Shown piece after piece: positions 7,301 to 60,985 of a stretch of 64,000 bases of DNA. Position 1 is the stretch's first letter, and each line of letters starts with the position of its first letter. The stretch is from Bacillota bacterium (GTDB lineage: Bacteria; Bacillota; Clostridia; TANB77; CAG-465): assembly GCA_023460235.1 (NCBI GenBank), contig JAEWRE010000083.1, positions 70,565-134,564 of the forward strand. Direction: 5' to 3'. A program made the translations under genes and the position numbers. The notes below the pieces were generated by a model, which saw only the letters and a list, made by a program, of their open reading frames with translations, was not told the DNA's origin and searched no databases.

Positions 7301-9909
7301 CATTGTAATAGATGTTTTTTAGTAATTAACATTCTATATAAAGAAATAGTAAATGCAGAAACACATACGCAGAACTTATACGGCATTGTTATAAAGTTAA
7401 AACACATAGTTAAAAGTTCCGCTTGAACTCCATGAATTATAGGTATATACTGCAATTCTTTAGTATGTCGAACTCTTCCAAATAAAAGAGTATCAAGTAT
7501 TGATATTATACTTCCAAAGTTTATAGCTAAAAAAGTCACAATAATTGCTGCAAAGAAACATTTAGCTGATATAAATAACGATAACACTATTGCAAGCATA
7601 GCAAATACATCAAGTGTAGGTCTCCTTAAATTATCAAAGATCTTCCATTTTGATAATAAATTTAATTTTGATCTAGGACTAATTAGCCATCTAATTATTT
7701 GTACGTCTCCTCTATACCACCTATGATTTCTTTTCATATATGCAATGTAGCTACTTGGGAAACCATCTTGTAATTCTATATCACTAGCAAGGCCTGCTCT
7801 AATAATAGAGCCTTCAAGTAAATCATGGCTTAATACTAAATTCTCCGGTATTTGTTTTGAAACAAGATCTTCAAATAATTTTATATCATATATTCCTTTA
7901 CCACAAAATATTGCTTCGCCAAAAATATCTTGATAAACATCAGAAACAGCTGTAGTATAGATATCTATTCCACCAAATCCGCCAAATATTTTTGAAAATA
8001 TAGATTTATTAGCCGCTTCTATATCAAGACCAACAGATGGCTGAATTAATCCATATCCTTTAACAACAATTCCCTTTTTCTCATCAACTATAGGTTGATT
8101 TAGAGGATGTGAAATTATTGATACAAGATCTTTTGCAGTGTTAAGTGATAACTGAGTGTCTTCGTCAATAGTTATAGCATATTTAGCATTAACCACATCT
8201 TTATAAATAATTGTCGCAATTTTATCTATCTCTTCTTCTTTTATTTCACCAAGAACTATCCTATTAAATTGTAAAAGAGCTCCTCTTTTTCTTTCCCAGC
8301 CCATATAACAATTTTCACTTTTTGAATAAACACGTTTTCTATACATAAAGTTAAATAATATATGATCGGCTTCATATTTACTATTTAGTTCATCAAGTTT
8401 TTCTTTTGCATAGCTTAATATTTTATTATCAATGTCCAAAAATTGTTTATCACTAGATATACAATCACCAAGTAACATATAATACATGTTTTCTGTTCTA
8501 TTTGCAAGATAAGTTACTTCCATCTTTTTTATCATTACATCAAGCTTTTCTATTGAAGTAATCATAGTAGGTATTACTACGTATGTAGGATACTTAGCAT
8601 CTATTGTTTTAGCAAAATCAAATCGTGGAAGAATTTCTGGAATCATGAATTTTCTTATTGCATAATTTATAATCTTTCCAAAAACTTCTACATAAAATAC
8701 GAACAAGAAAATCATTGATAATACTATCTGCCAAATTTCAGTAAACAATGTTGTATATGCAGTAGTTATTACCGTAAATTCCAATGCTAAGATTAAAATT
8801 GATACTATATATATTTGAGGTTTTATTTTATTAATTACTTTATTTTCAAATAAATTAAGCATGTAAGGTTTTCCAAGTTCCTTTTTTAAAAGGTATCTCA
8901 TTTCACCTATCAAGAAAAAACCTATATGCATTTTATATTTTTTAGAACAATCAACTGCTTTTCTTGCAACATATACTTCAGAAAAGTTATATTTTTTAGC
9001 AAGTTTAATTATATAATTTCTATATCTATTTTTAGTTTTATAATCACATTTTCTAAATTCATCTGTATAGTCATCTCTTAAGGCTTCATCAACCTTATTT
9101 ACTTTTTCAAAAATTTCTCTAAAGTTTATTCCTTGTAACTGTTTATATGAAAGTATTGCTTTACCTATATAGTCTGTTGTCTTAGCAACTTCCATATGTT
9201 CTTTTACTATAGCTTCATCAATTGTAAAGCCTATTTTCTCTGCTTCTTTTGATAGTATACTAAAGTATTTCTCACCTTTTACTCCTAGTTCTTTTAATCT
9301 ATATGCCATATATTCTACAAAAGCTGTATTTGTGCTTTTGATTTTAGTTGTATCAAGCATATATTCTCTAAAATCTCGAAAATTTTTAAGTTCTTTATAT
9401 AATTCTTTTATAATGTTCTCATCTTCATATTCACCTAAAATTATATTTTCGACTTGAATCTTTTTTAATTGAGAATTTGTTGTATTCATAGCAATTCTTG
9501 CGATGAATTTAAGAAGAGCAATTTTTAGCATAATCATAAACAAATTTAACTCTTCAGAAGTGAGATATGATAATTTTTGATGCTCTTTTAAGCATTCATA
9601 TATATTATTTTGATCAACATAACCAGAATAATTTTCAACTAATTCATATGCTAAATAAAATATACTTATATATTTTTTTCCATCATATGTCTTAACTATT
9701 GGTAGTTTTTTATTTTTTAAATTAACTTCAGAATATTTAATTTCTTGATAAGCTTCTTGAATAATATACATATTATCAAGTAGCCATTGACCTGCTGAAT
9801 GTATTTGAATTTTTAAATCAGTACTTTTTTCTAATATCTTATATGTATCATATATGATATCATAATTTGCTCTAGCTTCCTTAAAAATCCCATGTAGTGT
9901 ATTTTTCAT
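4300..9909 (-). CDS. cyclic beta-1,2-glucan synthase-like membrane glycosyltransferase (GT84-type domain between TM segments) with GH94 N-terminal beta-sandwich region
   Basis: 1869 aa. TM pair near residue 370-420, then a GT-A domain with DxD (ITIDEDTQ) and QxxRW-like (KRNHRWYRGDVQI) motifs, 4-6 further TM helices, then a roughly 900-aa soluble C-terminal region. This topology matches Cgs/NdvB. Confidence 0.65.
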   Translation of the reverse strand: MKNTLHGIFKEARANYDIIYDTYKILEKSTDLKIQIHSAGQWLLDNMYIIQEAYQEIKYSEVNLKNKKLPIVKTYDGKKYISIFYLAYELVENYSGYVDQNNIYECLKEHQKLSYLTSEELNLFMIMLKIALLKFIARIAMNTTNSQLKKIQVENIILGEYEDENIIKELYKELKNFRDFREYMLDTTKIKSTNTAFVEYMAYRLKELGVKGEKYFSILSKEAEKIGFTIDEAIVKEHMEVAKTTDYIGKAILSYKQLQGINFREIFEKVNKVDEALRDDYTDEFRKCDYKTKNRYRNYIIKLAKKYNFSEVYVARKAVDCSKKYKMHIGFFLIGEMRYLLKKELGKPYMLNLFENKVINKIKPQIYIVSILILALEFTVITTAYTTLFTEIWQIVLSMIFLFVFYVEVFGKIINYAIRKFMIPEILPRFDFAKTIDAKYPTYVVIPTMITSIEKLDVMIKKMEVTYLANRTENMYYMLLGDCISSDKQFLDIDNKILSYAKEKLDELNSKYEADHILFNFMYRKRVYSKSENCYMGWERKRGALLQFNRIVLGEIKEEEIDKIATIIYKDVVNAKYAITIDEDTQLSLNTAKDLVSIISHPLNQPIVDEKKGIVVKGYGLIQPSVGLDIEAANKSIFSKIFGGFGGIDIYTTAVSDVYQDIFGEAIFCGKGIYDIKLFEDLVSKQIPENLVLSHDLLEGSIIRAGLASDIELQDGFPSSYIAYMKRNHRWYRGDVQIIRWLISPRSKLNLLSKWKIFDNLRRPTLDVFAMLAIVLSLFISAKCFFAAIIVTFLAINFGSIISILDTLLFGRVRHTKELQYIPIIHGVQAELLTMCFNFITMPYKFCVCVSAFTISLYRMLITKKHLLQWTTAEVLEKKTKDSIIYYYKNMISNLIFGLLIICIPSDFTFVNMKAYIEFKDFIGLFFIIAPLVAYLLGKDHLLGRTAILEKEQDEEIIEVAKRTWTFFDTVMSPINNYLPTDNFQENRRYKLANRTSSTNIGFGVQSIICAYDLKFINEEEALNKLLNIFNTIEKLEKWNGHLYNWYNIKTLEPLRPRFVSTVDSGNFIACLLVAKEFLLSLKDTSIYSQREQTEYDPKIDTLLDSIDKILTETNFKVLYDTTRNLFSIGYDQESGKLLDSYYDMLMSESRITSLVAIATRQITSKHWFALSRNLIKVDGYKGLISWSGTAFEYFMPNIFNKSYPHTLIDQSLFFTKYSQIKYAKRNNVPWGISESAFAVKDNELNYQYREFGIPWLGLKRGLNNYMVVSPYSSLLMIDFAPQEVYANIKRLKKIGAYSSYGFYESIDFTKQHIDNNTKYEVVKTYMAHHQGMILSSINNYINNGVIKERFHSNPDIKAVELLLKEREKNIEKVQKNNDDQYTKFKPKNIEKYTTFINSSIFERKNEDEVVEFNGELNIAMLKGAELSSIITNNGANFLRFKDKIVNKQRFTDLSTTGNYIYITDKSTGRTVNATNSDIYSLNNKNTTKTVFNSMLNAVEYYIEDEDIETTTTVFLSPEYNAEIKKVSIYNNSCEKREILINTYIEPSMTDYMTNIVHPSFNNLQIETYYDNELDILVASKRKKNENDADLYVYSRLVGIDLEKEMETDKNKLINTTTDSYGSDVSKYPLWPVLSYRANIILDPHERQEFYCITGVDDSKYRISTAVINLDIRGIENQFKLSRELNSVVSRYLKLEPGRANIYNNIIKEILFKRNIQDSDKFWNSNINQSLLWKYSISGDLPILLVYVNKIENAGIVNETIAFMDYVKNRRLDIDIILLIDEKDIKNGPIYRYIKERLDRAVFMDYSRGNIYLLNISSLDKNEIELLSFLSRKYIQDISEFLCNDVEVVKSDKEDFSEEYIEEDVDENK

Positions 9910-49475: not shown

Positions 49476-50294
49476 CTAAAAAATGAAAAACTTTACAAGT
49501 ATGATTATTGCAATTATTACTCTGTAGTATGCAAATAAAGCAAAGTCATTTTTCTTAATGTAATTTAATAAGAACTTAATACTTACTACTCCTACTATTG
49601 CTGAAACTACTACTCCAATAATTAAAGGAAGTATATCACTTGAACTTAATAATTCTGGAACTTTAGTTATTGCAGCACCAAATATTATTGGAACTGAAAG
49701 TAAAAAAGTAAATTTAGCAGCAGCCTCTCTTGAAACACCAACAAGACGTGCAGTTAAAATTGTTGTTCCAGATCTAGAAAAGCCCGGTATTACTGCAAAT
49801 GCTTGTGATATTCCTATAAGTAATGTTTGTTTTAATGTTAAATCTTCAAATTTTGTATCTTTATCTTTGTATTTTTTTTCTGCCCATTTATCTCCAAGAA
49901 AAATTAGTACACCCATGACTGCAAGTAGTAAGGCAATTATCCAAATATTATTTTGTGTTCCAAACATAGCATCAATTTTATCTTCAAATAGCTTTCCAAT
50001 AAGTGCTCCTGGTATTGTTGCTAAAACTAAATACCAAAACATTCTATTATTAAATGAATCTTTTTTATGAACTATCTTGTCAAAAGCACCCTTAAATAAA
50101 TTAAACCAGTCTCTCCAGAAAAATATTAAAACTGCAATTAAAGTTCCTACATGTAGAGCAACATCAAAAGCCATAGAATGTTCTGGCCAATTAAACAAGT
50201 AAGGTACTAATTTAAGATGTGCAGAACTAGAAATAGGCAAAAATTCACCTATACCTTGAACTATTCCTAATATTATTGATTGAAATATATCCAT
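49476..50294 (-). CDS. uppP: undecaprenyl-diphosphatase
   Basis: BacA/UppP signature GxxQGxxEFLPISSSAHL and PGxSRSGxTI. 8 TM helices. Confidence 0.9.
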   Translation of the reverse strand: MDIFQSIILGIVQGIGEFLPISSSAHLKLVPYLFNWPEHSMAFDVALHVGTLIAVLIFFWRDWFNLFKGAFDKIVHKKDSFNNRMFWYLVLATIPGALIGKLFEDKIDAMFGTQNNIWIIALLLAVMGVLIFLGDKWAEKKYKDKDTKFEDLTLKQTLLIGISQAFAVIPGFSRSGTTILTARLVGVSREAAAKFTFLLSVPIIFGAAITKVPELLSSSDILPLIIGVVVSAIVGVVSIKFLLNYIKKNDFALFAYYRVIIAIIILVKFFIF

Positions 50295-50306
50295 ATTTAT
50301 TTCCTC

Positions 50307-51326
50307 CTAATCAATTACTTTTGTTGATATTAATAGATTATCCGTTGTACGCAAATATATCTTATTGCCTTTTAAAGCTTCAAAACTAACATATTTTGAA
50401 AGTCTACCAATTCTTTTATATGGTTCACTTGAGGCAACATTTATTATATAATTGGGGTATATAAGATATACACCATAATTGTTATAATAGGTTTTTACTA
50501 AGTCTGTATCACTTAAATCTATTTTTTCAGTTATTTTGTTATTTTTTACTTTATAAACAGTATCTTTTTTATTTTTACTTAAAAAATACAAATTATCATC
50601 TTCATCGATACCGATCATTTCAACTTTTTCTTTGAAAATATTAAGACTACTACTTCCATAATAAACATTATAGTTTTCGTCTTCATAATATACCATATCC
50701 TTATGTTGTAACATTATCATTTTGTTATATACACTTCCAGATTTAATAAGTGAAATGTTGTTAAATAAATCTACTCTATATATAGAATTTTTTTCTGTAG
50801 TACCGTTTTTTGTTTGAACATTAAAATAAATTATATTGATTATTGGTGACATATTCATATCTTTTATAGCAACAAAATTATTAACGCTTATTTCATTATA
50901 TTTATTTTTTTGTTTGTTATCAATTTGATAAGTTTTTAAAACAATTTTTGATACATTTGTTGTTTTACTCTCTGTAAAATAAAGTATCATATTTTTATCA
51001 TATAGTAATTTAATATAGCATATATTTCCATCTTCTATTGTTGTAACATTTTTTCCATCGCTTATATTATTAATATATATTTTTGAATCCTTTAAATATA
51101 CATAGTATTTATTATTATGTGAATATTCAATGTTTTCTACATCATTTGGTAAAACAATTTTTGTTATTGATTTTATTTCTTCTTTACTCGCCGAAACCGG
51201 TGAATTACCTATAATACTAGTCTGACTAAGTTTATATATAAAATTATCTAAAATCGCAAGTGATGAAGTTGTAAGTATTGTACCAACGAAAAAAAACACC
51301 GCAATATACATGAAAAACTTTTTCAT
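50307..51326 (-). CDS. hypothetical exported protein (339 aa)
   Basis: N-terminal signal/anchor. Tyr/Asn-rich, beta-rich composition. Confidence 0.5.
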   Translation of the reverse strand: MKKFFMYIAVFFFVGTILTTSSLAILDNFIYKLSQTSIIGNSPVSASKEEIKSITKIVLPNDVENIEYSHNNKYYVYLKDSKIYINNISDGKNVTTIEDGNICYIKLLYDKNMILYFTESKTTNVSKIVLKTYQIDNKQKNKYNEISVNNFVAIKDMNMSPIINIIYFNVQTKNGTTEKNSIYRVDLFNNISLIKSGSVYNKMIMLQHKDMVYYEDENYNVYYGSSSLNIFKEKVEMIGIDEDDNLYFLSKNKKDTVYKVKNNKITEKIDLSDTDLVKTYYNNYGVYLIYPNYIINVASSEPYKRIGRLSKYVSFEALKGNKIYLRTTDNLLISTKVID

Positions 51327-51343
51327 TTTTCCCTCTCTTTCAA

Positions 51344-52297
51344 TTATTTAGTAATTATAAAAGCTGTTGGTACATATCTTTCTCCCATTATATCACTAGG
51401 ATTATTGATTAAATTACCATCATATATCATTGTGCTTGAAGCTCCACCATCTAAATTAAAAGCGTTATAAGCTCCATATTGTAAAAATATATCCTGTACA
51501 TTTTTTAAAGTAGCTCCGATACTACCTGCTTGTCTTCCATCTATAACAAGCATAAGTATTGTACCATCTTTTTTCTGACCAATAGCAGTTCTTGGTTGGA
51601 TTCCCCATCCTCCATCACCACTTTTTATAGTAGGATTTCCATTTAAAATTATAACTGGTCCAAAAGTTACTGCACTTACAAAATTTAACTCTTTCATTTT
51701 CGAATATGTCATAGAATTTGATACAATCATTCTATTTTTATTATCAAGTCCAACAATTTTATATGATCCACTTGTACTACCACTCTTCAACTGTCCATCT
51801 TGGATTATAATTCCACTTGCTTTTCCACCAGTACCTAATGCATCATCTTCAAATCCACCAGCATTTATTCCACCAATTGCATCATAATATTCTACAATTT
51901 GAGTTGTAGTTGAACCTACTTTGCCAAGCTTTGGTGCTGCAACTAATTTAACTCTAGATGGATCATTTACAATCAGTAAATAGCCTTTAAAGGTTTTAGA
52001 ACTTACATCTACTAGTTCTATTCCATCTTTATTCATATTACTTACTTGTATATCTTCAACTTGAGTATCATCTAAAGTTTCCTCTGGCCTACTATTTTTT
52101 AATATTTCTTGTATTTTTTCATCACTTAAAAACAAAGTTGCAAAATATTGATGTGACATTGTAGTCATAGCTGTTGTAACTATCATATCTCTTGTATTTG
52201 TAAATGGTCCATAGAAAATTAATGCAATAGCAAGTAATGGCATAAATATTATCTCAAACAGGAAAAATCCTGCAAATATCTTCAATTTCTTTTTCAT
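51344..52297 (-). CDS. phosphodiester glycosidase family protein (NAGPA/DUF2233-like), membrane-anchored
   Basis: GGINAGGF, TGGKASGIIIQDG and AFNLDGGASSTM motifs. Confidence 0.6.
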   Translation of the reverse strand: MKKKLKIFAGFFLFEIIFMPLLAIALIFYGPFTNTRDMIVTTAMTTMSHQYFATLFLSDEKIQEILKNSRPEETLDDTQVEDIQVSNMNKDGIELVDVSSKTFKGYLLIVNDPSRVKLVAAPKLGKVGSTTTQIVEYYDAIGGINAGGFEDDALGTGGKASGIIIQDGQLKSGSTSGSYKIVGLDNKNRMIVSNSMTYSKMKELNFVSAVTFGPVIILNGNPTIKSGDGGWGIQPRTAIGQKKDGTILMLVIDGRQAGSIGATLKNVQDIFLQYGAYNAFNLDGGASSTMIYDGNLINNPSDIMGERYVPTAFIITK

Positions 52298-52445
52298 CTT
52301 ATTACCTCATAAAAAACATCTATAATATTTTATCAAACTTCAACATTTTTTGCAACTTAATATTTAGATTTTGTTGTTATTTTATTATATTTTATAAAAA
52401 AAAGAATGTACCATAATATTGATACACTCTTTTAAAAATTAACTT

Positions 52446-54863
52446 TTATTGCGTTTTATTATTATTGTATATGTCAACACCACCGTTATTTCCATCATCA
52501 GGTTTTTCTGTTGAAGGCTTACTTGTATGTATATCACAAGTTTCTGTTGGTAACATATATTGCCAATCTGCAGGTTTAACTGTAGGTACACTATCTCTTG
52601 TAATAAATGATTTTTCAACAGTAGATGGACAATACTGAGTTGCTATTTTACCGCTTTCAGTACAAATTCTAACAGTTTTATGAATATCACAAGTAGCAGT
52701 TGGAACTTTTCCTACAGCAACCAAATCAGTTAATGTTTGATCACCTCTTGGATCATTCCTACAAGCATCTGTTGCAACTTTACCTGATATTCTACAAAGT
52801 GCTGCAGTAGTTACACTACTTGGTTGTTCGAATTTCTTATTTGGTAATCCTTTTACTATTGTACTCATTACACTATTAAATTTTGTAATACTTACATATG
52901 GATAAGGTTTTCCAATAACTTTTGGTTTATCATATCCTTCCCATCCTGCAATAGAATAATATGGTGTAAATCCAGCAAACCATCTATCTTTATCATCATT
53001 TGTATTACCAGTTTTACCAGCAACATCAATTCCAGGAGTTTTAATATATCCATAAGCTGTACCATTAGCACTTGAAATAACTGATTGTAGGCAACTTGTT
53101 AACATATATGCTGTTGAATCAGCCATAACTCTTTTTGCTTCTGTTTTTGTAGATAATACTTCATTTCCATCATTATCAACAACTTTTGTGTAAAGTTTAG
53201 GTTCAATATATATACCACCATTTGCAATTGTTGCATAGGCACTTGCAAGTTCAAGTGGTGTAACACCGTCAGTAAGTCCGCCAAGAGCTAATGATGCTGA
53301 GTTTTTATCAGCTTCAACTAAACTTTTAAGCCCAGCATTTTTTGCAAAATTAAATGCATAGTTTATATCTACTAATCTGTTTGCTCTTACAGCTGGTAAA
53401 TTCATAGATTTGTTGATTGCATTTCTTACAGTAACATATCCATTAAATCCATTATAATAATTCTTTGGTGACCAATTCCCTATAGTAAGAGGACTATCAT
53501 CTAAACCAGATCCTGGTGAAAGCAATCCTTGTTCCATTGCAGGTCCATATGCACCAAATGGTTTCATAGTAGAACCTGGTTGTCTTTTAACAAGTGCACG
53601 ATTAAGAACTCTAGCACCAGTTTTTTCACCTGCACCACCTGTAAGTCCAACTACGTTTCCTGTTGAATTTTCTATTACAACCATTGCTCCTTGGAAGTCA
53701 TTTGCAAAAGTTTTGCTATCGTTATATGCATCATCAATTGCTTTTTGAACACTTGAATCTTGTGTTGTATATATTTTTAATCCTCCAGTAAGAAGCATTT
53801 TAGTTGCAAGACCTTTATTTATACCTTTTGCTTCCATAAGGTCATCTAATACTTGTTCATAAATAGCATCTACAAAGTAAGTTTGAACTGAGCTATCTGC
53901 CTGTACTTCTTCTTTTTTAAATGCAACTTCATATTTTAAAGCCTCATCATATTGTTGTTGATCAATTTTTTTAAGTTTTAGCATTTGATTTAATACTATT
54001 TTTTGTCTGTCTAAAAGTTTTTTCTTAGCTTCTTCACTTTTATATGGATTTGTTGATTCAGGTGATTGTATCTTAGCAGCAATTATAGCTGCTTCTGCCA
54101 CATTTAAATCTTTTACAGATTTTCCAAAATAGTTTTCAGATGCAACTTCTATACCATATGCCCCATCACCAAAATAAATAGTGTTTACATAAGCTTCAAA
54201 TATTTTTTCTTTAGACATCATTTTTTCAATCATTAAAGCTCTATACCATTCTCTTATTTTTCTTTGCCAAGAACTTTCTTTATCATCTTTTATATTTTTT
54301 ACAAGCTGTTGTGTTATTGTACTTCCACCAAAGTTTGAATCACCACGATTAATAACATAAGTTACAATAGCTCCGAGTGTTCTTTTTATATCTATACCAT
54401 TATGTGAGAAAAATCTTTCATCTTCAATAGATACAATTGCATCTACAACTGGTTTAGGCAAATCTTCATAATTTACCATTACTCTGTTTTCAGAATCAAA
54501 GAATGCACCAATTTGATTTGAGTCTTTGTCATATATAAAGCTTGTTTCATTTTGTAGTTCAATATCAGATAAGGCTAAACTATCTGTTTTACCAACTATA
54601 CCAGATATTACACCTACTACCACACCTGCACCTATTATACACAACGCAATAAATACAAATAGACAAATTCTAAAGATTTTCCATCCAGTCTTTTTACCTT
54701 TTTTATTTTTTTTACCTTTTCCTTTTTCATCAAAGGTTTTATCTCCATTATTTACAATTGGTACAACTTTAGTTCCTTGATCATTGTCACTCTTTTGTTT
54801 CTTTTTCAGAGATTTAAATTTAAGTTTATTAAATTTTCCCTTTGTTCTTTTTTTATCTTCCAT
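52446..54863 (-). CDS. bifunctional class A penicillin-binding protein (GT51 transglycosylase + transpeptidase)
   Basis: GT51 motifs EDERFFSHNGID and GGSTITQQLVKN. TPase SxxK (STMKP), SxN, KTG. Cys-rich repeated C-terminal extension. Confidence 0.9.
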   Translation of the reverse strand: MEDKKRTKGKFNKLKFKSLKKKQKSDNDQGTKVVPIVNNGDKTFDEKGKGKKNKKGKKTGWKIFRICLFVFIALCIIGAGVVVGVISGIVGKTDSLALSDIELQNETSFIYDKDSNQIGAFFDSENRVMVNYEDLPKPVVDAIVSIEDERFFSHNGIDIKRTLGAIVTYVINRGDSNFGGSTITQQLVKNIKDDKESSWQRKIREWYRALMIEKMMSKEKIFEAYVNTIYFGDGAYGIEVASENYFGKSVKDLNVAEAAIIAAKIQSPESTNPYKSEEAKKKLLDRQKIVLNQMLKLKKIDQQQYDEALKYEVAFKKEEVQADSSVQTYFVDAIYEQVLDDLMEAKGINKGLATKMLLTGGLKIYTTQDSSVQKAIDDAYNDSKTFANDFQGAMVVIENSTGNVVGLTGGAGEKTGARVLNRALVKRQPGSTMKPFGAYGPAMEQGLLSPGSGLDDSPLTIGNWSPKNYYNGFNGYVTVRNAINKSMNLPAVRANRLVDINYAFNFAKNAGLKSLVEADKNSASLALGGLTDGVTPLELASAYATIANGGIYIEPKLYTKVVDNDGNEVLSTKTEAKRVMADSTAYMLTSCLQSVISSANGTAYGYIKTPGIDVAGKTGNTNDDKDRWFAGFTPYYSIAGWEGYDKPKVIGKPYPYVSITKFNSVMSTIVKGLPNKKFEQPSSVTTAALCRISGKVATDACRNDPRGDQTLTDLVAVGKVPTATCDIHKTVRICTESGKIATQYCPSTVEKSFITRDSVPTVKPADWQYMLPTETCDIHTSKPSTEKPDDGNNGGVDIYNNNKTQ

Positions 54864-54883: not shown

Positions 54884-55255
54884 TTACCAGTCAAAAAATA
54901 TGTCTTCAAATTTCATTCTTATGTTTAAACTAATTTTTAATGCTTGTTTTACTTGTTCCATTGTTAACGAATCAAGAGAACAAACTTTAGATTTAAGTCT
55001 TGATTTATCAAGAGTTCTTAGCTGTTCAGCAAGAATTATAGAATCTTTATCTAGTCCACACATATTACTTTTTAAAGGTATATGAGTTGGCAATTTATTT
55101 TTTACTTTACTAGTTATTGGTAAAACAATAACAGTAGGACTATGTTTGTTTCCAATATTATTTTGTACAATCAAAACTGGCCTTACCCCATCTTGCTCAC
55201 TTCCAACAACTGGACCTAAATCAGCAAAAAATATATCTCCTCTTTTAATTTCCAA
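54884..55255 (-). CDS. mazF: MazF/EndoA(PemK)-family mRNA interferase toxin; TTG start
   Basis: 123 aa, nearly collinear with Bacillus EndoA (GDIFFADLGPVVGSEQDGVRPVLIVQNNIGN...SPTVIVLPITSK...LPTHIPL). RBS AAGGTG 7 nt before the TTG. No antitoxin ORF fits in the 62-nt upstream gap. Confidence 0.8.
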   Translation of the reverse strand: MEIKRGDIFFADLGPVVGSEQDGVRPVLIVQNNIGNKHSPTVIVLPITSKVKNKLPTHIPLKSNMCGLDKDSIILAEQLRTLDKSRLKSKVCSLDSLTMEQVKQALKISLNIRMKFEDIFFDW

Positions 55256-55317
55256 ATTATATACACCTTACTTTCACTATTATACACTCAATTTATAAAA
55301 AAATCAAATACTATCTA

Positions 55318-56043
55318 CTAAAAAACTGTATTAATTTCAAAAGAATTATAACTTATATCTATATATACCTTATTATCACTGTTATATACAAACATTTCAG
55401 TTGGTTTTGAAGTATCTTTATTTATTAACAATTCAATAGCTGATATTTTAATTCCATCTTTAACTAAATCAGAATATTCTTTACATATATCACAATCATT
55501 ATTTCCAAAAATGATTTTATAGCTTATCTTTTGATCCTCATCAACATTTTCAATTTTACAGCAGTTATCAATATTACCATTTATTATCTTTTTATATATT
55601 CCAATAAAAGTAGAAATACTCATTATATTTTCTTTTTTTACAATATAATCACTTAAATAAAATTCATTTTTTTGACTTTCATTTTTAATTTTAACTTGAT
55701 TATTTTCAATTAAATATGAAATTTTTTCATTATTTGCAGATAAGGTTTCAAACTTAAATCTTTCAGTATTATTTTTTTCATTTTTTGAATACCATTCTTT
55801 CATTTGATAATTATTAGTATTTTTGTTACTTTGTATTGTAATAGAATAATCAGCAAAGTATGATGTTATATCCATTATTGAATCTTTATTTAATACATTA
55901 CCTAAATTAAATCCATTTGAATCTTTATTTACTATATAAAATGTAGTAGCAATGAGTATGCAAGCAATCGTTATAGCAGTAATTATTATCATTATTATCT
56001 TTTTTTCTTTTAAAAAACCTAAATTTATACTTGTTATAAACAT
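55318..56043 (-). CDS. hypothetical membrane-anchored protein (241 aa)
   Basis: N-terminal TM helix, Asn/Lys-rich exported domain with CC..CDIC cysteines. Confidence 0.5.
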   Translation of the reverse strand: MFITSINLGFLKEKKIIMIIITAITIACILIATTFYIVNKDSNGFNLGNVLNKDSIMDITSYFADYSITIQSNKNTNNYQMKEWYSKNEKNNTERFKFETLSANNEKISYLIENNQVKIKNESQKNEFYLSDYIVKKENIMSISTFIGIYKKIINGNIDNCCKIENVDEDQKISYKIIFGNNDCDICKEYSDLVKDGIKISAIELLINKDTSKPTEMFVYNSDNKVYIDISYNSFEINTVF

Positions 56044-56103
56044 AAAAACTCCCCTATTAATATCATAATTAATTATATGATACTAATAGAGGAGTATGAT
56101 TTA

Positions 56104-57729
56104 TTATTTTATATATTTGCTTGATTTTATATCAGAAAGAGAATTCTTTAATTCATTTAATTTTTCTCTTATTTGTGCTAAATCATTTTCATCACCAGTA
56201 TGCTTTAATTCTGATTTAACACTATTTGTCATTTTATCCACATCTTCTTTTAAGAATGAAAGTAATTCAAGTATATCAAATCTAGTAGATTGATATGTAG
56301 ACTTAGTAGATCCGATAAGTTCTCCTTTTTCATTATATGATTCTTTATAGTCAGGTATAGTTGAAGAAATATTAAATTTATCAAAAATATATCCTTTTAA
56401 TGCTTGTTGAGCAGAATATTCGCCATGAACTATAAAAATATGTTTTGGTTTTGTAGTCATTTTATCTATCCAATTAAGAAGTCCATCTCTATCAGCATGA
56501 CCAGAAAATGCATCTAAATATCTTATTTCAGCATTAACAGCAATCTCTTCTCCAAATATTTTTACTATTTTTTCGCCTGATAATATTTTCTTACCAAGTG
56601 TTCCTTCAGCTTGGAATCCAACAAATAAAACTGTACATTCAGGTCTATACAAATTATGCTTTAAATGATGCTTTATTCTTCCAACTTCACACATTCCACT
56701 TGCTGAGATTATAATCTTAGGTGTTCTATCTTCATTTAATGCTTTTGACTCTTCAGCAGTACTTACAAAATGCAAATTATCAAATTCAAGAGGATTATCA
56801 CCTTTTAGTAAATACCTTAATGCATCATCATCATAATATTCAGGATTATCAATAAAAATATTAGTTGCATTTACGGCTAGAGGACTATCCACATAAACAG
56901 GTATTTTTTTAATTTTTTCTCCAACACCTTTCATAGCTGCATATCTATTAATTTCATATAATAATTCTTGAGTTCTTCCTACAGCAAAAGAAGGTATTAT
57001 TATATTTCCGCCTCTTTCTACAGTATCAAGTAAAATTTGAATAAAAGTATCACTTTGATCTTCAATATTTCCGTGAAGTCTATCTCCATATGTTGATTCC
57101 ATTACTAAATAATCAGCACCTTCAATAAATGTAGGGTCCTTAATTATTGGCATATCAGTATTACCAAGATCACCAGAAAATACTAATTTTTTTTCTTCGC
57201 CATCTTCTTTTAAATCAACTTCAACTATTGCAGATCCAAGCATATGTCCAGCATCAATTAATCTAAATGATAAATCATCACTGATTTTTATTTCATCTTC
57301 ATAATTTACACCTTCAAAAAGTTTCATTGAATCCAAACCATCTTGAGCTGTATACATTGGCTCTGTTTCTTTCTTTCCAGCTCTTTTTCTTTTTTTGTTT
57401 ATCCATTCTATTTCTTTTTCTTGTATATGTCCACTATCTGCAAGCATTATTTTACAAAGATCTACTGTAGCAGTAGTAGTATATATCTTACCAGTATATC
57501 CAGCCTTATATAACTTTGGTATTCTACCACTATGATCAATATGTGCATGAGTTAGTATTACAAAATCAATTTCATTTATATTAAACGGAAAATCTTCATA
57601 ATTTTGCATTTGATCAGTAAGTCTTCCTTGAAACATTCCACAATCAACTAGAAATTTTTTACCACAAGCTTCTACCATATGACATGAACCAGTTACTGTT
57701 CTTGCTGCACCATAAAAAGTTATTTTCAT
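56104..57729 (-). CDS. beta-CASP family metallo-beta-lactamase-fold ribonuclease (RNase J-like / CPSF-like)
   Basis: MBL HxHxDH motif (THAHIDHSG) and beta-CASP/RMMBL segments. Start set at MKITFYGAAR (ATG 57729) 8 nt after AAGGAGAT. The ORF table extends to 57786. Confidence 0.75.
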   Translation of the reverse strand: MKITFYGAARTVTGSCHMVEACGKKFLVDCGMFQGRLTDQMQNYEDFPFNINEIDFVILTHAHIDHSGRIPKLYKAGYTGKIYTTTATVDLCKIMLADSGHIQEKEIEWINKKRKRAGKKETEPMYTAQDGLDSMKLFEGVNYEDEIKISDDLSFRLIDAGHMLGSAIVEVDLKEDGEEKKLVFSGDLGNTDMPIIKDPTFIEGADYLVMESTYGDRLHGNIEDQSDTFIQILLDTVERGGNIIIPSFAVGRTQELLYEINRYAAMKGVGEKIKKIPVYVDSPLAVNATNIFIDNPEYYDDDALRYLLKGDNPLEFDNLHFVSTAEESKALNEDRTPKIIISASGMCEVGRIKHHLKHNLYRPECTVLFVGFQAEGTLGKKILSGEKIVKIFGEEIAVNAEIRYLDAFSGHADRDGLLNWIDKMTTKPKHIFIVHGEYSAQQALKGYIFDKFNISSTIPDYKESYNEKGELIGSTKSTYQSTRFDILELLSFLKEDVDKMTNSVKSELKHTGDENDLAQIREKLNELKNSLSDIKSSKYIK

Positions 57730-57850
57730 ATTATCTATCTCCTTACTATCTTTAGTATGCACATATTTTATACCAAATAAAAACAATTTTCAATATATTT
57801 TTTAAAATTATATTTCAAACATAAACCTTTCTATTTTAGATTTATATTGA

Positions 57851-57922: not shown

Positions 57923-60900
57923 TTACAAAGCAGCTGAAACTACCAAAACAGGACGGAATCCATAACTACCATCAGCATTACCAGTTCCACCAGGGTAACA
58001 GTCAAAAGCAAACAAGCCTGCTGTAGCTGAACCATAGCAATAGTCTCCACGTCCAAAAAATGGTCCATAAACAATTTCACTTGAATTTGGCATAAAAGAT
58101 TGATCTCCATACCATGAGGAATTAATCTTTATAGTATTGGCATCAATTTTAAGACCTCCATTTGCTGATGTTTCATAAACTGCATCACCTTTTTTACTTG
58201 AATTTGCTGAATAGTTTGCTACATAATCATCAGTTGCACCTTTAGTATATATATCTTTATACTGTGCTGCTGAATTTACTAAGCTTGAACCATATGTTGT
58301 TAAATCACTACTTCCATTATTAACATAAGCTGCTGTGTATTCATCTGCACCACCACTCATGTCATATACTCCATACATGTTTCCTGTAGTACTAGCATTT
58401 ACTCCATAAGTAACATTATTATATGCATATGTATCTGCTGTACCACTTGCACTTACGCTAGTTCCAGCTTGACCAGTTATAAAACTTTTATTTGGGTTTA
58501 TCCAAACTTCACTATTTTTACCATAAATACTATTTGATAAATAAGCTGCTGCTCCCCATTCAATATTTTTCATAAGATGAGTATCAAATCCTGAACCACT
58601 TGTTCCCCATCCATATTTGCTATTTGTTTCCATATTTCTACATGCTGTAAACATTGCATCTATTTTTAAACTTCTTAATGATACTACATTTGGTTTTACA
58701 TCTACTGCTGTTGTTGTTCCACTCGCTTCAAATTTTGCTACCCATATTCCAGTAAGTTGTGTACTTCCAAATGTAAATGCAGTATGCATTGTATATCCAC
58801 TTGTAGTTGATGTACCTGTGCCACTTACAAAATTTACTGCTATTGTTTGAGCTGTTGATGTGTGTGGAGTTGGTATTTTGTACTCATATCTTGGTATCCA
58901 TACCCACATTGAACCATCTGCTGTTTGTGCATTTGCCCAATGTTTATTTGAATAATTGTACCAAGAAGAATCAGAGCTTGTAGTAGCTACAATATTTCCA
59001 TTTACATCCCATTTTATTGGAGTCATTCCTGGTGCTAACACAGGCGCATTAGCATTTGAAGTATCAGGTGTATCATTTATTTGGAAAACTACAGATTTTG
59101 TAATTGTAGCATTACCCAGATTATCATTTACTTTTATCCATAAATAATAATTACCTAGATTGGTATTTGTCAGAGTAGATCCACTTGTAAATGTGTTCCA
59201 ACCACTACTTGGAGTTGTACTGTTTTGTGTATCCCATACATATTGTAATGTACTTGTATTTACCCCACTTCCAGAATCATTAACAGTTACTATTGTGCTA
59301 GCTTGAGATGTAACTGTGCCACCATTTGTTCCAAATGCAACTGTAGGACTTGTTTTATCTATATTTACTACATATCCTGCACTCTCTGCTCCATTTGTAC
59401 CTACATTATTTACTGCTCTTGCTTTTATATATGTTGTTCCTTCTGTTGATACTACTATTTTATTTGTACTGTTGTATGTTTGCCATGCTCCATCATTTAT
59501 ATTGTACTCATATCTTGCTATTCCAGTTGATGTTACTTCATTTACTGTTAATGTTACATTGCTATTTGTCCATGTATTACTTGTTATTGTTCCTGTTATT
59601 ACTGGTGCTACTGGTATATCAGTATTTGTTGTCACACCACTTGACAATACTTCTCTTCTATTTCCTGCATTATCTACTAATAATACATGTAAATAATATA
59701 CTTCATTAGTACTTGATGTTACTGTTATTGTTTGTGTAGCACTTGTAAATACTTCTGCTGTGTTCCATATTTCTTCTGTATCTCCATATGGAGTTGATAC
59801 AGTTGAATATATATATTTACAGTTATTTAAATCCAGCCCACTTCCATTTGTATTGTCACTCATTGTTACTGTTGCTTGTACACTACTTGTTGTTGTAGTG
59901 CCTGGTATTGTTATATTTGCTTCATTTGGAACTGTTGTGTCTACTATTATTTTACCTGATGTTGATGATTTTTTGTTATTTGCTGAATCTACTGCAAGTA
60001 CATGTAAATAATATTCTCCATCTGTTGGTACTTCTAATGCCAGTGTAGCAACATTTCCAACATAGTCTGTTGCACTAAATGCTGTTGCTGTATTCCATGC
60101 AACATCTGTTTCTGTATAATTTGTTGATATTTTATCTATTATGTACTTACTTCCTGTTTTATTTATTCCACTTCCACCATCATTATCGCTTAATGTCACC
60201 GCTATAGGTGTTATAATTAAATTATTTGAGTAGTTTGACATTGATATTTGTGCTGCATTTGGTACCACTGAATCTACTGTTGATACTACTTTTATTTCTT
60301 TTTGCCTTACATCTGCCAAATTATCCATCTTCACTTCTACTTTTATATAATAAGTTTTATTTGCTTCTATTCCTTCTGTTATACTGTAACTTACCGTTGA
60401 ACTTTTTTCTTTTATCTCTTTTATATATGTTTCTGGATAACTTCCACTTGTATCTGATATATATATTCTATAGTAATCTATTTTACTTACATCTACAAAT
60501 GCTCCTGTTAGATTTACTGTTAAGTCTAAACTTGCTTCAGTTGGTACTACAGTTGCATCAATTTTAAAGTCTTTTGATTCTATTACTCCATCACACCATG
60601 ATGATTCTTTTTGGCTATCTCCAACATATACTAGTTCACCAGATATTACTTCCAATTTATCTGGATAATTAGTATTTTCCATTGATGTTATAATATCATC
60701 AATTTTTATTTCTTCATTTTTTTGCTTTGCACCATTTTCATATGAACCTGATTTATCTGCATTTAACAATTTCGCATCATAATTTCCATTAGTGTTTGAC
60801 ATTTTCCCTAACTCATATAATGACAAGTCACTTTTAAATGTGTCTACATCATTTAAAAACTTTGCTTTTTTAGCTGAATCAATTGGATTATTTTTACTCA

Positions 60901-60985
60901 AATTAAGTATTACTGCTCCAGCTAATATTATTATAACGATTATTGTTATAATTAATACTATTAATGAAATACCTTTCTTTTTCAC
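57923..60985 (-). CDS. large membrane-anchored surface protein: N-terminal signal-anchor, roughly 6 Ig-like repeats, C-terminal FGE-sulfatase/C-type-lectin-like domain
   Basis: 1020 aa, GTG start 6 nt after AGGAGG. N-terminus KKGISLIVLIITIIVIIILAGAVI. Repeats each contain SDNDGGSG/SDNTNGSG/NDSGSGV-type turns. The C-terminal roughly 300 aa align to the FGE-domain motif order (WVWIPRYEY ... IWVAKFEAS ... NIEWGAAAYLS ... GVYDMSGGADEYT ... FGRGDYCYGS ... YGFRPVL). Confidence 0.7.
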   Translation of the reverse strand: MKKKGISLIVLIITIIVIIILAGAVILNLSKNNPIDSAKKAKFLNDVDTFKSDLSLYELGKMSNTNGNYDAKLLNADKSGSYENGAKQKNEEIKIDDIITSMENTNYPDKLEVISGELVYVGDSQKESSWCDGVIESKDFKIDATVVPTEASLDLTVNLTGAFVDVSKIDYYRIYISDTSGSYPETYIKEIKEKSSTVSYSITEGIEANKTYYIKVEVKMDNLADVRQKEIKVVSTVDSVVPNAAQISMSNYSNNLIITPIAVTLSDNDGGSGINKTGSKYIIDKISTNYTETDVAWNTATAFSATDYVGNVATLALEVPTDGEYYLHVLAVDSANNKKSSTSGKIIVDTTVPNEANITIPGTTTTSSVQATVTMSDNTNGSGLDLNNCKYIYSTVSTPYGDTEEIWNTAEVFTSATQTITVTSSTNEVYYLHVLLVDNAGNRREVLSSGVTTNTDIPVAPVITGTITSNTWTNSNVTLTVNEVTSTGIARYEYNINDGAWQTYNSTNKIVVSTEGTTYIKARAVNNVGTNGAESAGYVVNIDKTSPTVAFGTNGGTVTSQASTIVTVNDSGSGVNTSTLQYVWDTQNSTTPSSGWNTFTSGSTLTNTNLGNYYLWIKVNDNLGNATITKSVVFQINDTPDTSNANAPVLAPGMTPIKWDVNGNIVATTSSDSSWYNYSNKHWANAQTADGSMWVWIPRYEYKIPTPHTSTAQTIAVNFVSGTGTSTTSGYTMHTAFTFGSTQLTGIWVAKFEASGTTTAVDVKPNVVSLRSLKIDAMFTACRNMETNSKYGWGTSGSGFDTHLMKNIEWGAAAYLSNSIYGKNSEVWINPNKSFITGQAGTSVSASGTADTYAYNNVTYGVNASTTGNMYGVYDMSGGADEYTAAYVNNGSSDLTTYGSSLVNSAAQYKDIYTKGATDDYVANYSANSSKKGDAVYETSANGGLKIDANTIKINSSWYGDQSFMPNSSEIVYGPFFGRGDYCYGSATAGLFAFDCYPGGTGNADGSYGFRPVLVVSAAL

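What the first reader, a model, noticed from the sequence alone, without database searches (positions are those of the whole stretch)
54884..55255. MazF/EndoA-type endoribonuclease toxin with no adjacent antitoxin, placed between a membrane protein and PBP1A
The 123-aa protein is nearly collinear with Bacillus EndoA/MazF and keeps the catalytic Arg (GVRPV) and Thr (ITSK) positions. The gene immediately upstream on the same strand is a 241-aa membrane-anchored protein, not a MazE/RHH/AbrB-type antitoxin. The 62-nt gap cannot hold one. The toxin's stop lies 20 nt before the start of the class A PBP, so it looks operonic with cell-wall genes. An active toxin needs a neutraliser. The possibilities are a non-canonical antitoxin, an antitoxin in trans, or a regulatory role tied to envelope synthesis.
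Basis: partly seen in the sequence, partly recalled or inferred. Interest (0 to 1): 0.55.

Follow-up and report, generated by a model that had tools for sequence, protein, structure and literature searches.

The report
Antitoxin-less MazF RNase beside PBP1A
An intact MazF/EndoA-type RNA-cutting "toxin" sits alone, without its usual antitoxin gene, as the first gene of a conserved operon with a cell-wall synthase in a lineage of uncultured gut Clostridia. This adds a well-defined case to the growing evidence that such "toxins" can act as ordinary regulators.

Summary
Window 54884-55255 (minus strand, TTG start) encodes a 123-aa MazF/EndoA protein. It matches Pfam PemK at 2.5e-35, its predicted fold matches B. 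subtilis MazF (TM 0.87-0.92), and the catalytic Arg25 and Thr48 are kept. No MazE-like ORF exists in any frame of the 64-kb window.

The upstream 241-aa gene is an SsdC/YdcC-like membrane-anchored protein with an RseB/LolA fold. In Bacilli and some Clostridia this gene heads the order ssdC-alr-mazE-mazF. Here alr and mazE have dropped out, and mazF now sits 20 nt upstream of ponA.

About 30 related loci keep four features:
- the ssdC-like/mazF/PBP1A triad
- a conserved promoter directly upstream of mazF
- a TTG start codon
- a clade-specific C-terminal tail (R..F.DIF.DW)

dN/dS is about 0.1, so the gene is not decaying.

Lacking an antitoxin is not unusual. Only 15 of 87 related Clostridia/Bacilli loci have MazE, and a 2026 preprint reports no upstream antitoxin in about 25% of MazF-encoding Bacillota.

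Best reading: a domesticated, solitary, sequence-specific RNase co-expressed with PBP1A. A neutraliser encoded elsewhere in the genome cannot be excluded. This is a new variant of a known kind, of moderate interest.

The parts
54884..55255 (-). mazF/ndoA-type endoribonuclease gene, 123 aa, TTG start, stop codon included
   Evidence: ORF list. Pfam PemK 2.5e-35. PDB sequence matches. AF2 plus Foldseek TM 0.87-0.92 to B. subtilis MazF. R25/T48 invariant.
54887..54919 (-). codons 113-123: clade-specific C-terminal tail R-MKFEDIFFDW, ending in a C-terminal Trp
   Evidence: The tail [IL]R..[FI].[DE][ILF]F.[DN]W is conserved in 94 of the 120 best homologues. It is absent from MazE-linked and other orphan MazFs. 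AF2 gives a short helix at 116-119 with pLDDT 61-69.
55279..55307 (-). sigma-A-type promoter in the 62-nt gap: TTGATT, 17 nt, TATAAT
   Evidence: Consensus scan scores 10/12. TATTTG(C/A) followed by a 16-17 nt spacer and GTGTATAAT is invariant in 12 of 13 diverged loci, including loci where the -35 box overlaps the ssdC-like coding end. Its function as a promoter is inferred.
55264..55269 (-). Shine-Dalgarno AAGGTG, 8 nt before the TTG start
   Evidence: Read directly from the sequence. The equivalent GTAGGGG / GTGAGGA is conserved.
55318..56043 (-). ssdC/ydcC-like gene: N-terminal cytoplasmic peptide, TM anchor and extracytoplasmic RseB/LolA-like domain (241 aa)
   Evidence: Precomputed Pfam PF27667 YdcC. 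jackhmmer links it to the ORFs upstream of alr-mazE-mazF in Bacillales and Clostridium. AF2 (pLDDT 69.5) plus Foldseek gives RseB, LolA, MucB and GerS as top hits. Weak NCBIfam match to GerS-related.
52446..54863 (-). ponA: class A PBP (805 aa), second cistron, 20 nt after mazF
   Evidence: Pfam Transgly 8e-59 and Transpeptidase 3.5e-33. TIGR02074 PBP_1a_fam 2.5e-149, 498.5 bits, just below the 508.75-bit cut-off. Adjacency is conserved in all tail-clade loci.
52400..52433 (-). intrinsic terminator after ponA (end of the mazF-ponA unit)
   Evidence: Terminator scan: 14-bp stem followed by a T-run. Sequence read.
56048..56095 (-). 20-bp hairpin plus T-run between the beta-CASP gene and the ssdC-like gene (upstream boundary)
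   Evidence: Terminator scan. Sequence. The 3' arm contains the GGGGAG Shine-Dalgarno of the ssdC-like gene.
56104..57729 (-). CPSF-like beta-CASP metallo-beta-lactamase RNase (541 aa from the ATG; the ORF runs to 57786), a conserved neighbour
   Evidence: Pfam Beta-Casp 1e-41, RMMBL and Lactamase_B. Neighbour of the ssdC-like/mazF pair in L001, L002, L085, L086 and 11 metagenome loci, and directly downstream of mazF in L090.

Best explanation
This is the vertically inherited chromosomal EndoA/MazF orthologue of an uncultured, AT-rich (27% GC) Clostridia lineage, sitting in what remains of the ancestral ssdC(ydcC)-alr-mazE-mazF locus.

Shown:
- alr and mazE are gone.
- mazF is intact, catalytically complete and under strong purifying selection.
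- It is the promoter-proximal gene of a conserved mazF-ponA pair directly downstream of ssdC-like.
- The clade also carries a conserved sigma-A-like promoter, a conserved TTG start codon, a conserved 10-residue acidic/aromatic C-terminal tail, and clade-specific substitutions around the RNA groove and on helix 3 (G22D, deletion at position 52, E61P, D104K, Q108K, I114R).

Inferred:
- The protein no longer works as half of an addiction module. It works as a solitary, domesticated, sequence-specific endoribonuclease, probably cutting a U^ACAUA-like motif.
- It is made together with PBP1A and trims a defined set of mRNAs.
- Its harmfulness is limited by weak TTG initiation and by lineage-specific changes in the protein, and no co-transcribed antitoxin is involved.
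For: Identity and integrity. R25, T48 and S19-E20-Q21 are invariant in 120 homologues. dN/dS is 0.06-0.25, and 0.09-0.11 for the pairs where dS is not saturated.

Ancestral locus: the 241-aa protein is homologous to ORFs lying upstream of alr-mazE-mazF in L079, L080, L082, L053 and L050. L019 shows the intermediate order ydcC-alr-mazF.

No antitoxin: a MazE profile finds 15 upstream MazEs among 87 loci, but none in the window or in any tail-clade locus, in any frame. The 35-66 nt gaps are too short to hold one.

Conserved operon: the ssdC-like/mazF/PBP1A order holds in L001-L003, L085, L086 and L088, and in every one of the 21 metagenome loci with enough flank, except L092, whose upstream flank differs, even where the outer flanks differ. 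The promoter alignment is and the terminators.

Weak start codon: TTG is used in 5 of 6 plus 18 of 19 tail-clade loci, against 4 of 66 other orphan loci.

Literature: B. subtilis, Listeria and S. aureus MazF cut U^ACAUA and act as non-lethal regulators, and about 25% of MazF-encoding Bacillota lack an upstream antitoxin (bioRxiv 10.64898/2026.08.06.743204; PMC11780869). An S. aureus mazE mutant is viable (PMC9077811).
Against: In B. subtilis, MazF expressed alone affects growth at about 1% of the native operon's transcription level (bioRxiv 10.64898/2026.08.06.743204).

The promoter here looks strong and must also drive ponA.

UACAUA is not depleted in the window. There are 28 sites in 50 genes against 25 +/- 4 in synonymous shuffles, and 19 of the 50 genes carry a site. 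An unopposed enzyme with the ancestral specificity would therefore hit many mRNAs.

Only 64 kb of the genome could be searched, so a neutraliser encoded elsewhere is not excluded. No activity data exist for any member of this clade.
Confidence: 0.45

Rival explanations
1. A classical type II system split in two. A MazE-type or unrelated antitoxin is encoded elsewhere in the genome and neutralises this MazF in trans. The precedent is MrpC, reported as the neutraliser of the solitary MazF-mx of Myxococcus.
For: MazF alone is growth-inhibitory at low levels in B. subtilis (bioRxiv 10.64898/2026.08.06.743204). UACAUA sites are frequent and not depleted here. The trans-neutraliser precedent is reviewed in PMC4803016. 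Only 64 kb of the genome was searchable.
Against: No MazE-like ORF and no RHH, AbrB or HTH small protein was found in the 64-kb window. None was found within +/-5-6 kb in about 30 tail-clade loci. Unlinked toxin and antitoxin genes lose the stoichiometric co-expression on which type II systems depend (established knowledge of type II systems).
Confidence: 0.28
2. Control is built into the clade-specific parts. In one version, the acidic/aromatic C-terminal tail (FEDIFFDW-COOH) autoinhibits the enzyme, as a cis antitoxin comparable to EzeT. In the other version, it docks MazF onto the basic cytoplasmic segments of its two membrane-protein neighbours, so that MazF is sequestered at the membrane. 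Those segments are the conserved N-terminus M[FY]IKS[FIL]NL..K.KK of the SsdC-like protein and the 55-62-aa Lys-rich N-terminal tail of PBP1A.
For: The tail is strictly conserved and ends in an invariant Trp. In the loci sampled it occurs only together with PBP1A adjacency. In this clade the SsdC-like protein has replaced a lipoprotein signal peptide with a conserved cytoplasmic peptide plus a TM anchor. The acidic tail and the basic partner segments are complementary in charge. EzeT provides the precedent (PMC4803016).
Against: The tail is only about 10 residues long. Its pLDDT is 61-69 in the monomer model and no docking could be modelled. Basic residues next to a TM helix are expected from the positive-inside rule anyway. 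The PBP1A tails are low-complexity and not conserved in sequence. Many other orphan MazFs (alr-mazF in Lachnospiraceae, and Ruminococcus loci) have neither tail nor MazE, so the tail is not needed to live without an antitoxin. The co-varying K104, K108 and R114 on helix 3 suggest the tail simply packs back on helix 3.
Confidence: 0.15
3. The whole upstream 241-aa protein is a non-canonical antitoxin.
For: The gene pair is tightly conserved on the same strand with gaps of 3-66 nt.
Against: Apart from about 15 N-terminal residues and one TM helix, the protein is an extracytoplasmic RseB/LolA/GerS-like domain (B. subtilis SsdC topology in PMC7769602). MazF has no signal peptide, so the bulk of the protein and MazF lie on opposite sides of the membrane. 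The adjacency is inherited from the ancestral ssdC-alr-mazE-mazF order. mazF has its own promoter downstream of ssdC-like.
Confidence: 0.05
4. A decaying or enzymatically dead remnant of a TA module, tolerated because it is inactive.
For: The antitoxin has been lost. The start codon is the weak TTG. There are clade-specific substitutions near the beta1-beta2 loop (G22D) and in the beta3-beta4 loop.
Against: Every RNA-contacting or catalytic position checked is invariant in 120 homologues: S19, E20, Q21, R25, T48, H58, E77, Q78, R80, T81. dN/dS is about 0.1. The length is fixed at 123 aa. The promoter, Shine-Dalgarno and start codon are conserved.
Confidence: 0.03

Closest known systems
B. subtilis EndoA/MazF (NdoA, YdcE) with EndoAI/MazE, and the S. 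aureus and Listeria orthologues
   Same: Same protein family and fold, at 54-57% identity. The same catalytic Arg25 and Thr48 and the same RNA-contact motifs (GSEQ, EQxRT). The same ancestral chromosomal locus, marked by ssdC/ydcC upstream. Probably the same kind of U^ACAUA-type specificity (inferred).
   Different: No mazE and no alr. mazF is fused into a ponA operon and has its own promoter. The start codon is TTG. There is a 10-residue C-terminal tail, together with G22D, a deletion at position 52, E61P, D104K, Q108K and I114R.
Solitary MazF-mx of Myxococcus xanthus (MrpC reported as trans neutraliser), and the antitoxin-less mazF genes noted for Enterococci and others in bioRxiv 10.64898/2026.08.06.743204
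   Same: A MazF gene without a linked mazE, embedded in host physiology and not in a mobile addiction module.
   Different: Different MazF subfamily and phylum (MazF-mx). Here there is a defined conserved operon with a class A PBP and a lineage-specific tail. No neutraliser is known.
EzeT (E. coli zeta-toxin homologue with a cis-acting antitoxin domain)
   Same: An orphan toxin homologue carrying an extra segment in the same polypeptide.
   Different: EzeT has an 83-residue N-terminal antitoxin domain with demonstrated function. Here the extra segment is about 10 C-terminal residues of unknown role.
alr-mazF loci of Lachnospiraceae and other orphan mazF loci of Oscillospiraceae/Ruminococcus
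   Same: EndoA-type MazF with intact catalytic residues and no MazE within +/-6 kb.
   Different: Those proteins are 113-118 aa without the tail, mostly start with ATG or GTG, keep alr upstream (with the last codons of mazE surviving as the Shine-Dalgarno), and are not linked to PBP1A.

Membership tests
MazF/PemK endoribonuclease (Pfam PF02452) | Full-length match to the family profile above the curated cut-off | tested here: met
   121.4 bits against a cut-off of 23.1, profile positions 1-109 of 109
MazF/PemK endoribonuclease (Pfam PF02452) | MazF/CcdB-type beta-barrel fold with a C-terminal helix | tested here: met
   AF2 pLDDT 87.5. Foldseek TM 0.87-0.92 and rmsd 1.4-2.1 A to 1ne8, 4mdx and 7bxy.
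MazF/PemK endoribonuclease (Pfam PF02452) | Catalytic Arg25 and Thr48 (B. subtilis numbering) and the beta1-beta2 loop S-E-Q | tested here: met
   Present in the window protein (alignment). Invariant in A1 and A2 and in all 87 loci.
MazF/PemK endoribonuclease (Pfam PF02452) | Sequence-specific, ribosome-independent RNA cleavage leaving a 5'-OH | not testable with these tools
   Needs purified protein or in vivo end-mapping.
Type II toxin-antitoxin module mazEF | Co-transcribed antitoxin gene (RHH/CopG or AbrB type) directly upstream of, or overlapping, the toxin gene | tested here: not met
   The 62-nt gap has no ORF. A six-frame MazE profile search of the window finds nothing at E<=1, while the same search finds 15 MazEs in other loci. 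The same negative result holds in about 30 tail-clade loci.
Type II toxin-antitoxin module mazEF | Toxin neutralised by direct binding of a labile protein antitoxin | not testable with these tools
   No candidate partner was identified. The rest of the genome is not available.
Type II toxin-antitoxin module mazEF | Location on a mobile or accessory element (typical but not obligatory) | tested here: not met
   The neighbours are core genes: ClpP, trigger factor, BipA, Cmk, SerS, MnmA, RsgA, GreA, UppP, PBP1A. No PADLOC defence hit.
Chromosomal EndoA (ndoA) orthologue at the ssdC-alr-mazE-mazF locus of Bacillota | ssdC/ydcC homologue upstream on the same strand | tested here: met
   PF27667 precomputed. 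jackhmmer links it to the ydcC-position ORFs of L079, L080, L082, L053 and L050. RseB/LolA fold.
Chromosomal EndoA (ndoA) orthologue at the ssdC-alr-mazE-mazF locus of Bacillota | alr (alanine racemase) between ssdC and mazE/mazF | tested here: not met
   No alr homologue within +/-6 kb of the gene (alr profile search of locus L001, which is the window's own contig), while 35 other loci have one upstream.
Solitary MazF with a trans neutraliser (MazF-mx/MrpC type) | No mazE anywhere in the genome, and an unlinked protein that binds and inhibits MazF | tested here: inconclusive
   Absence is shown only for 64 kb.
Toxin with a cis-acting antitoxin segment (EzeT type) | Extra segment in the same polypeptide whose removal unmasks toxicity | tested here: inconclusive
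   A conserved 10-residue tail exists. Its position is uncertain (pLDDT 61-69) and its function is untestable here.

The most novel reading that the evidence does not exclude
In this Clostridia lineage the MazE antitoxin has been replaced by a membrane-tethering arrangement. The new acidic/aromatic C-terminal tail of MazF docks onto the cytoplasmic N-terminal segments of its two operon neighbours, the SsdC-like envelope protein and PBP1A. The RNase is then held inactive at the membrane and released when envelope synthesis is disturbed. That would be a toxin-derived RNase wired directly to cell-wall status without any dedicated antitoxin.
Probability: 0.08. Interest if true: 0.85.

Novelty: new variant of a known kind. 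Interest (0 to 1): 0.42.

Why it matters
MazF is the textbook "toxin" of type II toxin-antitoxin biology. Surveys usually discard toxins that lack a partner (for example PMC3879964). This finding defines a clean natural case: a whole lineage in which the EndoA orthologue has lived without a linked antitoxin long enough to acquire its own conserved promoter, a conserved weak start codon, a new C-terminal tail and a fixed partnership with a class A PBP, all under strong purifying selection.

That makes an open question directly testable. The question, raised in the 2026 Bacillota survey, is whether antitoxin-less MazFs are self-limited housekeeping regulators or depend on unlinked neutralisers. 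The case also suggests a link between mRNA cleavage and envelope synthesis.

It does not overturn current views. It extends the emerging picture of Gram-positive MazF as a precise post-transcriptional regulator.

Tried and rejected
1. Hidden antitoxin. ORFs of at least 30 aa on both strands around the gene, stop-to-stop frames upstream of mazF in 83 loci, intergenic small ORFs of the window and Pfam scans of 35 of the window's ORFs of 74 aa or more, the locus genes included all showed nothing antitoxin-like. The small ORFs upstream of orphan mazF genes look like non-coding junk.

2. Antisense or type I/III RNA control. No promoter-like site lies on the plus strand within or next to mazF, there are no repeats, and the gap is only 62 nt. 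Not pursued further.

3. Selection against cleavage sites. UACAU (88 observed against 86.8 +/- 6.8) and UACAUA (28 against 25.2 +/- 4.2) are not depleted relative to synonymous-codon shuffles. The mazF-ponA transcript has a single UACAUA, near the ponA 3' end. This is uninformative.

4. Tail as a MazE mimic. There is no sequence resemblance to MazE C-termini recovered from 15 loci. The AF2 monomer gives low confidence for the tail.

5. PBP1A N-terminal tail as antitoxin. It is Lys-rich, low-complexity and not conserved in sequence, and such tails are common in Firmicute class A PBPs (my own knowledge).

6. The search for related loci with a C-terminal-only alignment failed because no stretch was conserved enough. 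It was replaced by a degenerate DNA pattern for the tail.

The species itself was not recovered there.

8. The listing of cluster members gave no names or taxonomy.

9. PADLOC found no defence-system match.
Full report
OBSERVATION

The ORF at window 54884..55255 lies on the minus strand, starts with TTG and encodes 123 aa. An AAGGTG Shine-Dalgarno sits 8 nt upstream of the start. The protein matches Pfam PemK_toxin end to end (E=2.5e-35). It aligns over residues 2-112 with B. anthracis MoxT, B. cereus and B. subtilis EndoA/MazF and S. aureus MazF (E about 1e-35 to 1e-38).

An AlphaFold2 model built on 120 homologues has mean pLDDT 87.5. It superposes on B. subtilis YdcE/MazF (1ne8, 4mdx) at TM 0.87-0.92, rmsd 1.4-2.1 A and 54-57% identity. 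Arg25 (GVRPV) and Thr48 (ITSK) are present.

The upstream same-strand gene (55318..56043, 241 aa) ends 62 nt before mazF. The PBP1A ATG (54863) lies 20 nt after the mazF stop codon.

NO ANTITOXIN IN REACH

No minus-strand ORF of at least 30 aa lies in or overlaps the gap. I built a MazE profile by jackhmmer, starting from B. subtilis EndoAI (sequence from memory). I searched all stop-to-stop frames of 84 fetched loci plus the window. The search recovered MazE directly upstream of mazF in 13 loci, plus 2 weak Lactobacillaceae hits, but found nothing in the 64-kb window at E<=1.

Intergenic small ORFs of the window are hydrophobic or low-complexity. Pfam scans of 35 of the window's ORFs of 74 aa or more, the locus genes included, showed no RHH, AbrB or XRE antitoxin domain. 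They showed a core-genome neighbourhood instead: ClpP, trigger factor, BipA, Cmk, SerS, MnmA, IscS-like, RsgA, GreA and UppP. There is no PADLOC hit.

WHAT THE UPSTREAM GENE IS

The collection's precomputed annotation assigns the 241-aa protein and its three retrievable homologues to Pfam PF27667 (YdcC). My Pfam copy lacks this model.

An iterative search over the ORFs of all fetched loci links the protein to ORFs that lie upstream of alr-mazE-mazF in several loci:
- a Bacillales MAG (L079)
- Viridibacillus arvi (L080)
- Clostridium aestuarii (L082)
- L053 and L050

It also links to ORFs that lie directly upstream of mazF in other orphan loci.

Its AF2 model (pLDDT 69.5) has an N-terminal TM helix followed by a beta-rich domain. 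The best structural matches are RseB, LolA, MucB and the C. difficile GerS lipoprotein. There is also a weak NCBIfam match to GerS-related proteins. B. subtilis YdcC is SsdC, a MucB/RseB-like protein with one N-terminal TM segment and an extracellular domain (PMC7769602).

So the window holds the ancestral ssdC-alr-mazE-mazF locus with alr and mazE removed. L019 (ydcC-alr-mazF, no mazE) is an intermediate form. Because nearly all of the SsdC-like protein lies outside the cytoplasm, it is a poor antitoxin candidate.

A CONSERVED OPERON IN A DEFINED CLADE

A database search gave 5,896 MazF relatives. The best roughly 100 (63-81% identity) are almost all exactly 123-126 aa long. They end in [IL]R..[FI].[DE][ILF]F.[DN]W-COOH. 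This tail is absent from MazE-linked MazFs and from other orphan MazFs.

The order ssdC-like / mazF / class A PBP is kept in the following loci:
- the window's own contig (L001)
- an 81%-identical relative (L002)
- relatives at 71%, 66%, 64% and 63% identity (L003, L085, L086/87, L088/89)

In four of these lineages a beta-CASP RNase lies upstream. In two of them the outer flanks are entirely different.

A degenerate DNA pattern for the tail retrieved 21 metagenome loci. Every one with enough flank shows the same triad, except L092, which has a different upstream flank. Eleven have the beta-CASP gene, and none has MazE in any frame. Two apparent truncations were artefacts of my start-codon picker; the genes are intact.

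The gap in front of mazF aligns across 13 diverged loci. TATTTG(C/A), a 16-17 nt spacer and GTGTATAAT are essentially invariant. This holds both where the -35 box falls in the ssdC-like coding end and where, as in the window, it is intergenic. In the window this is TTGATT, 17 nt, TATAAT at 55307-55279.

Terminator-like hairpins lie upstream of ssdC-like (56095-56048) and after ponA (52433-52400), and none lies in between. TTG is the start codon in 5 of 6 plus 18 of 19 tail-clade loci, against 4 of 66 other orphan loci and 3 of 15 MazE-linked loci (three of those undetermined).

NOT DECAYING

G18, S19, E20, Q21, G23, R25, P26, T48, H58, E77, Q78, R80 and T81 are invariant in 120 homologues. dN/dS within the clade is 0.06-0.25, and 0.09-0.11 for the two pairs where dS is below 1.

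Clade-specific replacements relative to MazE-linked proteins, in B. subtilis numbering, are:
- G22D in the beta1-beta2 loop
- a one-residue deletion at position 52
- E61P
- D104K, Q108K, G112N/S and I114R on and after helix 3

The new basic residues on helix 3 arose together with the acidic tail. This suggests, by inference, that the tail packs back on helix 3. In the monomer model the tail forms a short helix (116-119) at pLDDT 61-69, so its position is not established.

HOW UNUSUAL IS THE MISSING ANTITOXIN?

Not very. The 87 loci classified were the 80 best matches from GTDB species genomes plus the fetched contigs. They break down as follows:
- 15 have MazE.
- About 27 have alr followed by an 80-140 nt gap and then mazF. 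These are mostly Lachnospiraceae and include the complete Blautia producta DSM 2950 genome.
- 12 have ssdC-like directly upstream.
- About 33 (Ruminococcus/Oscillospiraceae) have neither.

In the alr-mazF loci, the bases before the start codon (GGAGTGTGA) match the last codons of mazE in MazE-linked loci. This looks like a deletion scar that kept the Shine-Dalgarno.

A preprint of August 2026 surveyed about 3,300 Bacillota reference genomes (bioRxiv 10.64898/2026.08.06.743204). It reports:
- MazF in 80% of species
- a putative antitoxin upstream in only 75% of those
- "mazF only" next to alr in some
- an open question whether a non-adjacent regulator exists

The same work and PMC11780869 show that B. 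subtilis EndoA cuts the 6-nt motif U^ACAUA. The preprint further shows that MazF acts as a non-lethal stationary-phase regulator in B. subtilis and Listeria. An S. aureus mazE mutant is viable (PMC9077811). Earlier MazF surveys discarded toxins without a partner (PMC3879964). The solitary MazF-mx/MrpC case and the cis-antitoxin protein EzeT are the classical precedents (PMC4803016).

MECHANISM

Shown: an intact, selected EndoA orthologue without a linked antitoxin, promoter-proximal in a conserved mazF-ponA unit next to ssdC-like, with a conserved weak start codon and a new tail.

Inferred (confidence about 0.45): it is a domesticated solitary endoribonuclease, co-expressed with PBP1A. It is restrained by weak translation initiation and lineage-specific protein changes, and it acts on a defined set of transcripts.

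Three points argue against this reading:
- MazF alone is growth-inhibitory in B. subtilis at about 1% of native operon transcription (the same preprint).
- The promoter here looks strong.
- UACAUA is frequent and not depleted in this 27%-GC window: 28 sites against 25 +/- 4 expected, and 19 of 50 genes carry one.

For these reasons an unlinked neutraliser stays a serious rival (about 0.28); only 64 kb could be searched. Control through the tail, or tethering to the cytoplasmic segments of SsdC-like and PBP1A, is possible but weakly supported (about 0.15). In its favour, the tail co-occurs with PBP1A adjacency, and in this clade SsdC-like has replaced a lipoprotein signal with a conserved cytoplasmic peptide plus a TM anchor. 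Against it, many other orphan MazFs have no tail. The whole SsdC-like protein as antitoxin (about 0.05) and a dead toxin (about 0.03) are unlikely.

VERDICT

The finding is real and correctly described. It is a new variant of a known kind: a solitary EndoA-type MazF, here with a clade-specific tail, its own promoter, a TTG start and a fixed operon partnership with PBP1A. Interest is moderate. The absence of an antitoxin is now known to be common in Bacillota. This lineage nevertheless offers an unusually clean system for testing how an antitoxin-less MazF is tolerated and whether it is tied to envelope synthesis.

Noticed in passing
window 56104-57786 (-); also L001, L002, L085, L086, L090 and 11 of L091-L111: A CPSF-like beta-CASP metallo-beta-lactamase RNase is a conserved neighbour of the ssdC-like/mazF pair. 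Pfam Beta-Casp scores 1e-41 and RMMBL also matches; NCBIfam scores are below cut-off for aCPSF1 and Cas14. In the 131-aa MazF clade it lies directly downstream of mazF. PMC11780869 reports an unidentified 5'-end trimming activity on the 5'-OH products of EndoA cleavage in B. subtilis, so MazF and this beta-CASP RNase could work as a pair.
   Followed up: partly
window 56048-56095 (-): A 20-bp AT-rich hairpin with a GC clamp and a T-run ends the beta-CASP gene. Its 3' arm contains the GGGGAG Shine-Dalgarno of the ssdC-like gene, whose ATG is 5 nt further on. Read-through transcripts would therefore have the ribosome-binding site sequestered.
   Followed up: no
window 55996-56043 (-), N-terminus of the 241-aa protein; L002, L003, L006, L085, L086, L088: SsdC-like proteins of the tail clade carry a conserved cytoplasmic N-terminus (M[FY]IKS[FIL]NL..K.KK) plus a TM anchor. 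Homologues next to alr/mazE in other Firmicutes are lipoproteins with a lipobox.
   Followed up: partly
L023, L038, L039, L041, L062, L064, L072 and other alr-mazF loci, about 10-20 nt before the mazF start: Orphan alr-mazF loci of Lachnospiraceae keep GGAG(T/C)GTGA before the start codon. In MazE-linked loci the same bases are the last codons of mazE. This looks like a deletion scar that kept the Shine-Dalgarno.
   Followed up: partly
P0091-P0120 subset; L090:5001-5396: A second MazF clade of 130-132 aa has a different, basic amphipathic C-terminal extension (GLRGKxSFEEYIKYLKKK...). In the one locus examined (L090), a 221-aa SsdC-like gene lies 10 nt upstream and there is no MazE.
   Followed up: partly
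window 57923-60985 (-): A 1020-aa protein with a prepilin-like N-terminus (MKKKGISLIVLIITIIVIIILAG...) and an OmpL47-type beta-barrel domain. It is conserved upstream of the beta-CASP gene in L001.
   Followed up: no
window 49476-52297 (-): Downstream of ponA lie a phosphodiester glycosidase (NAGPA) domain protein, a 339-aa protein of unknown function and undecaprenyl-diphosphatase UppP. Together they make this an envelope-synthesis gene neighbourhood.
   Followed up: partly
window 4300-9909 (-) and 2265-4328 (-): A very large ORF (1869 aa) overlaps by 29 nt the start of a GH94 (cellobiose/chitobiose phosphorylase-like) gene. The large ORF was not examined.
   Followed up: no
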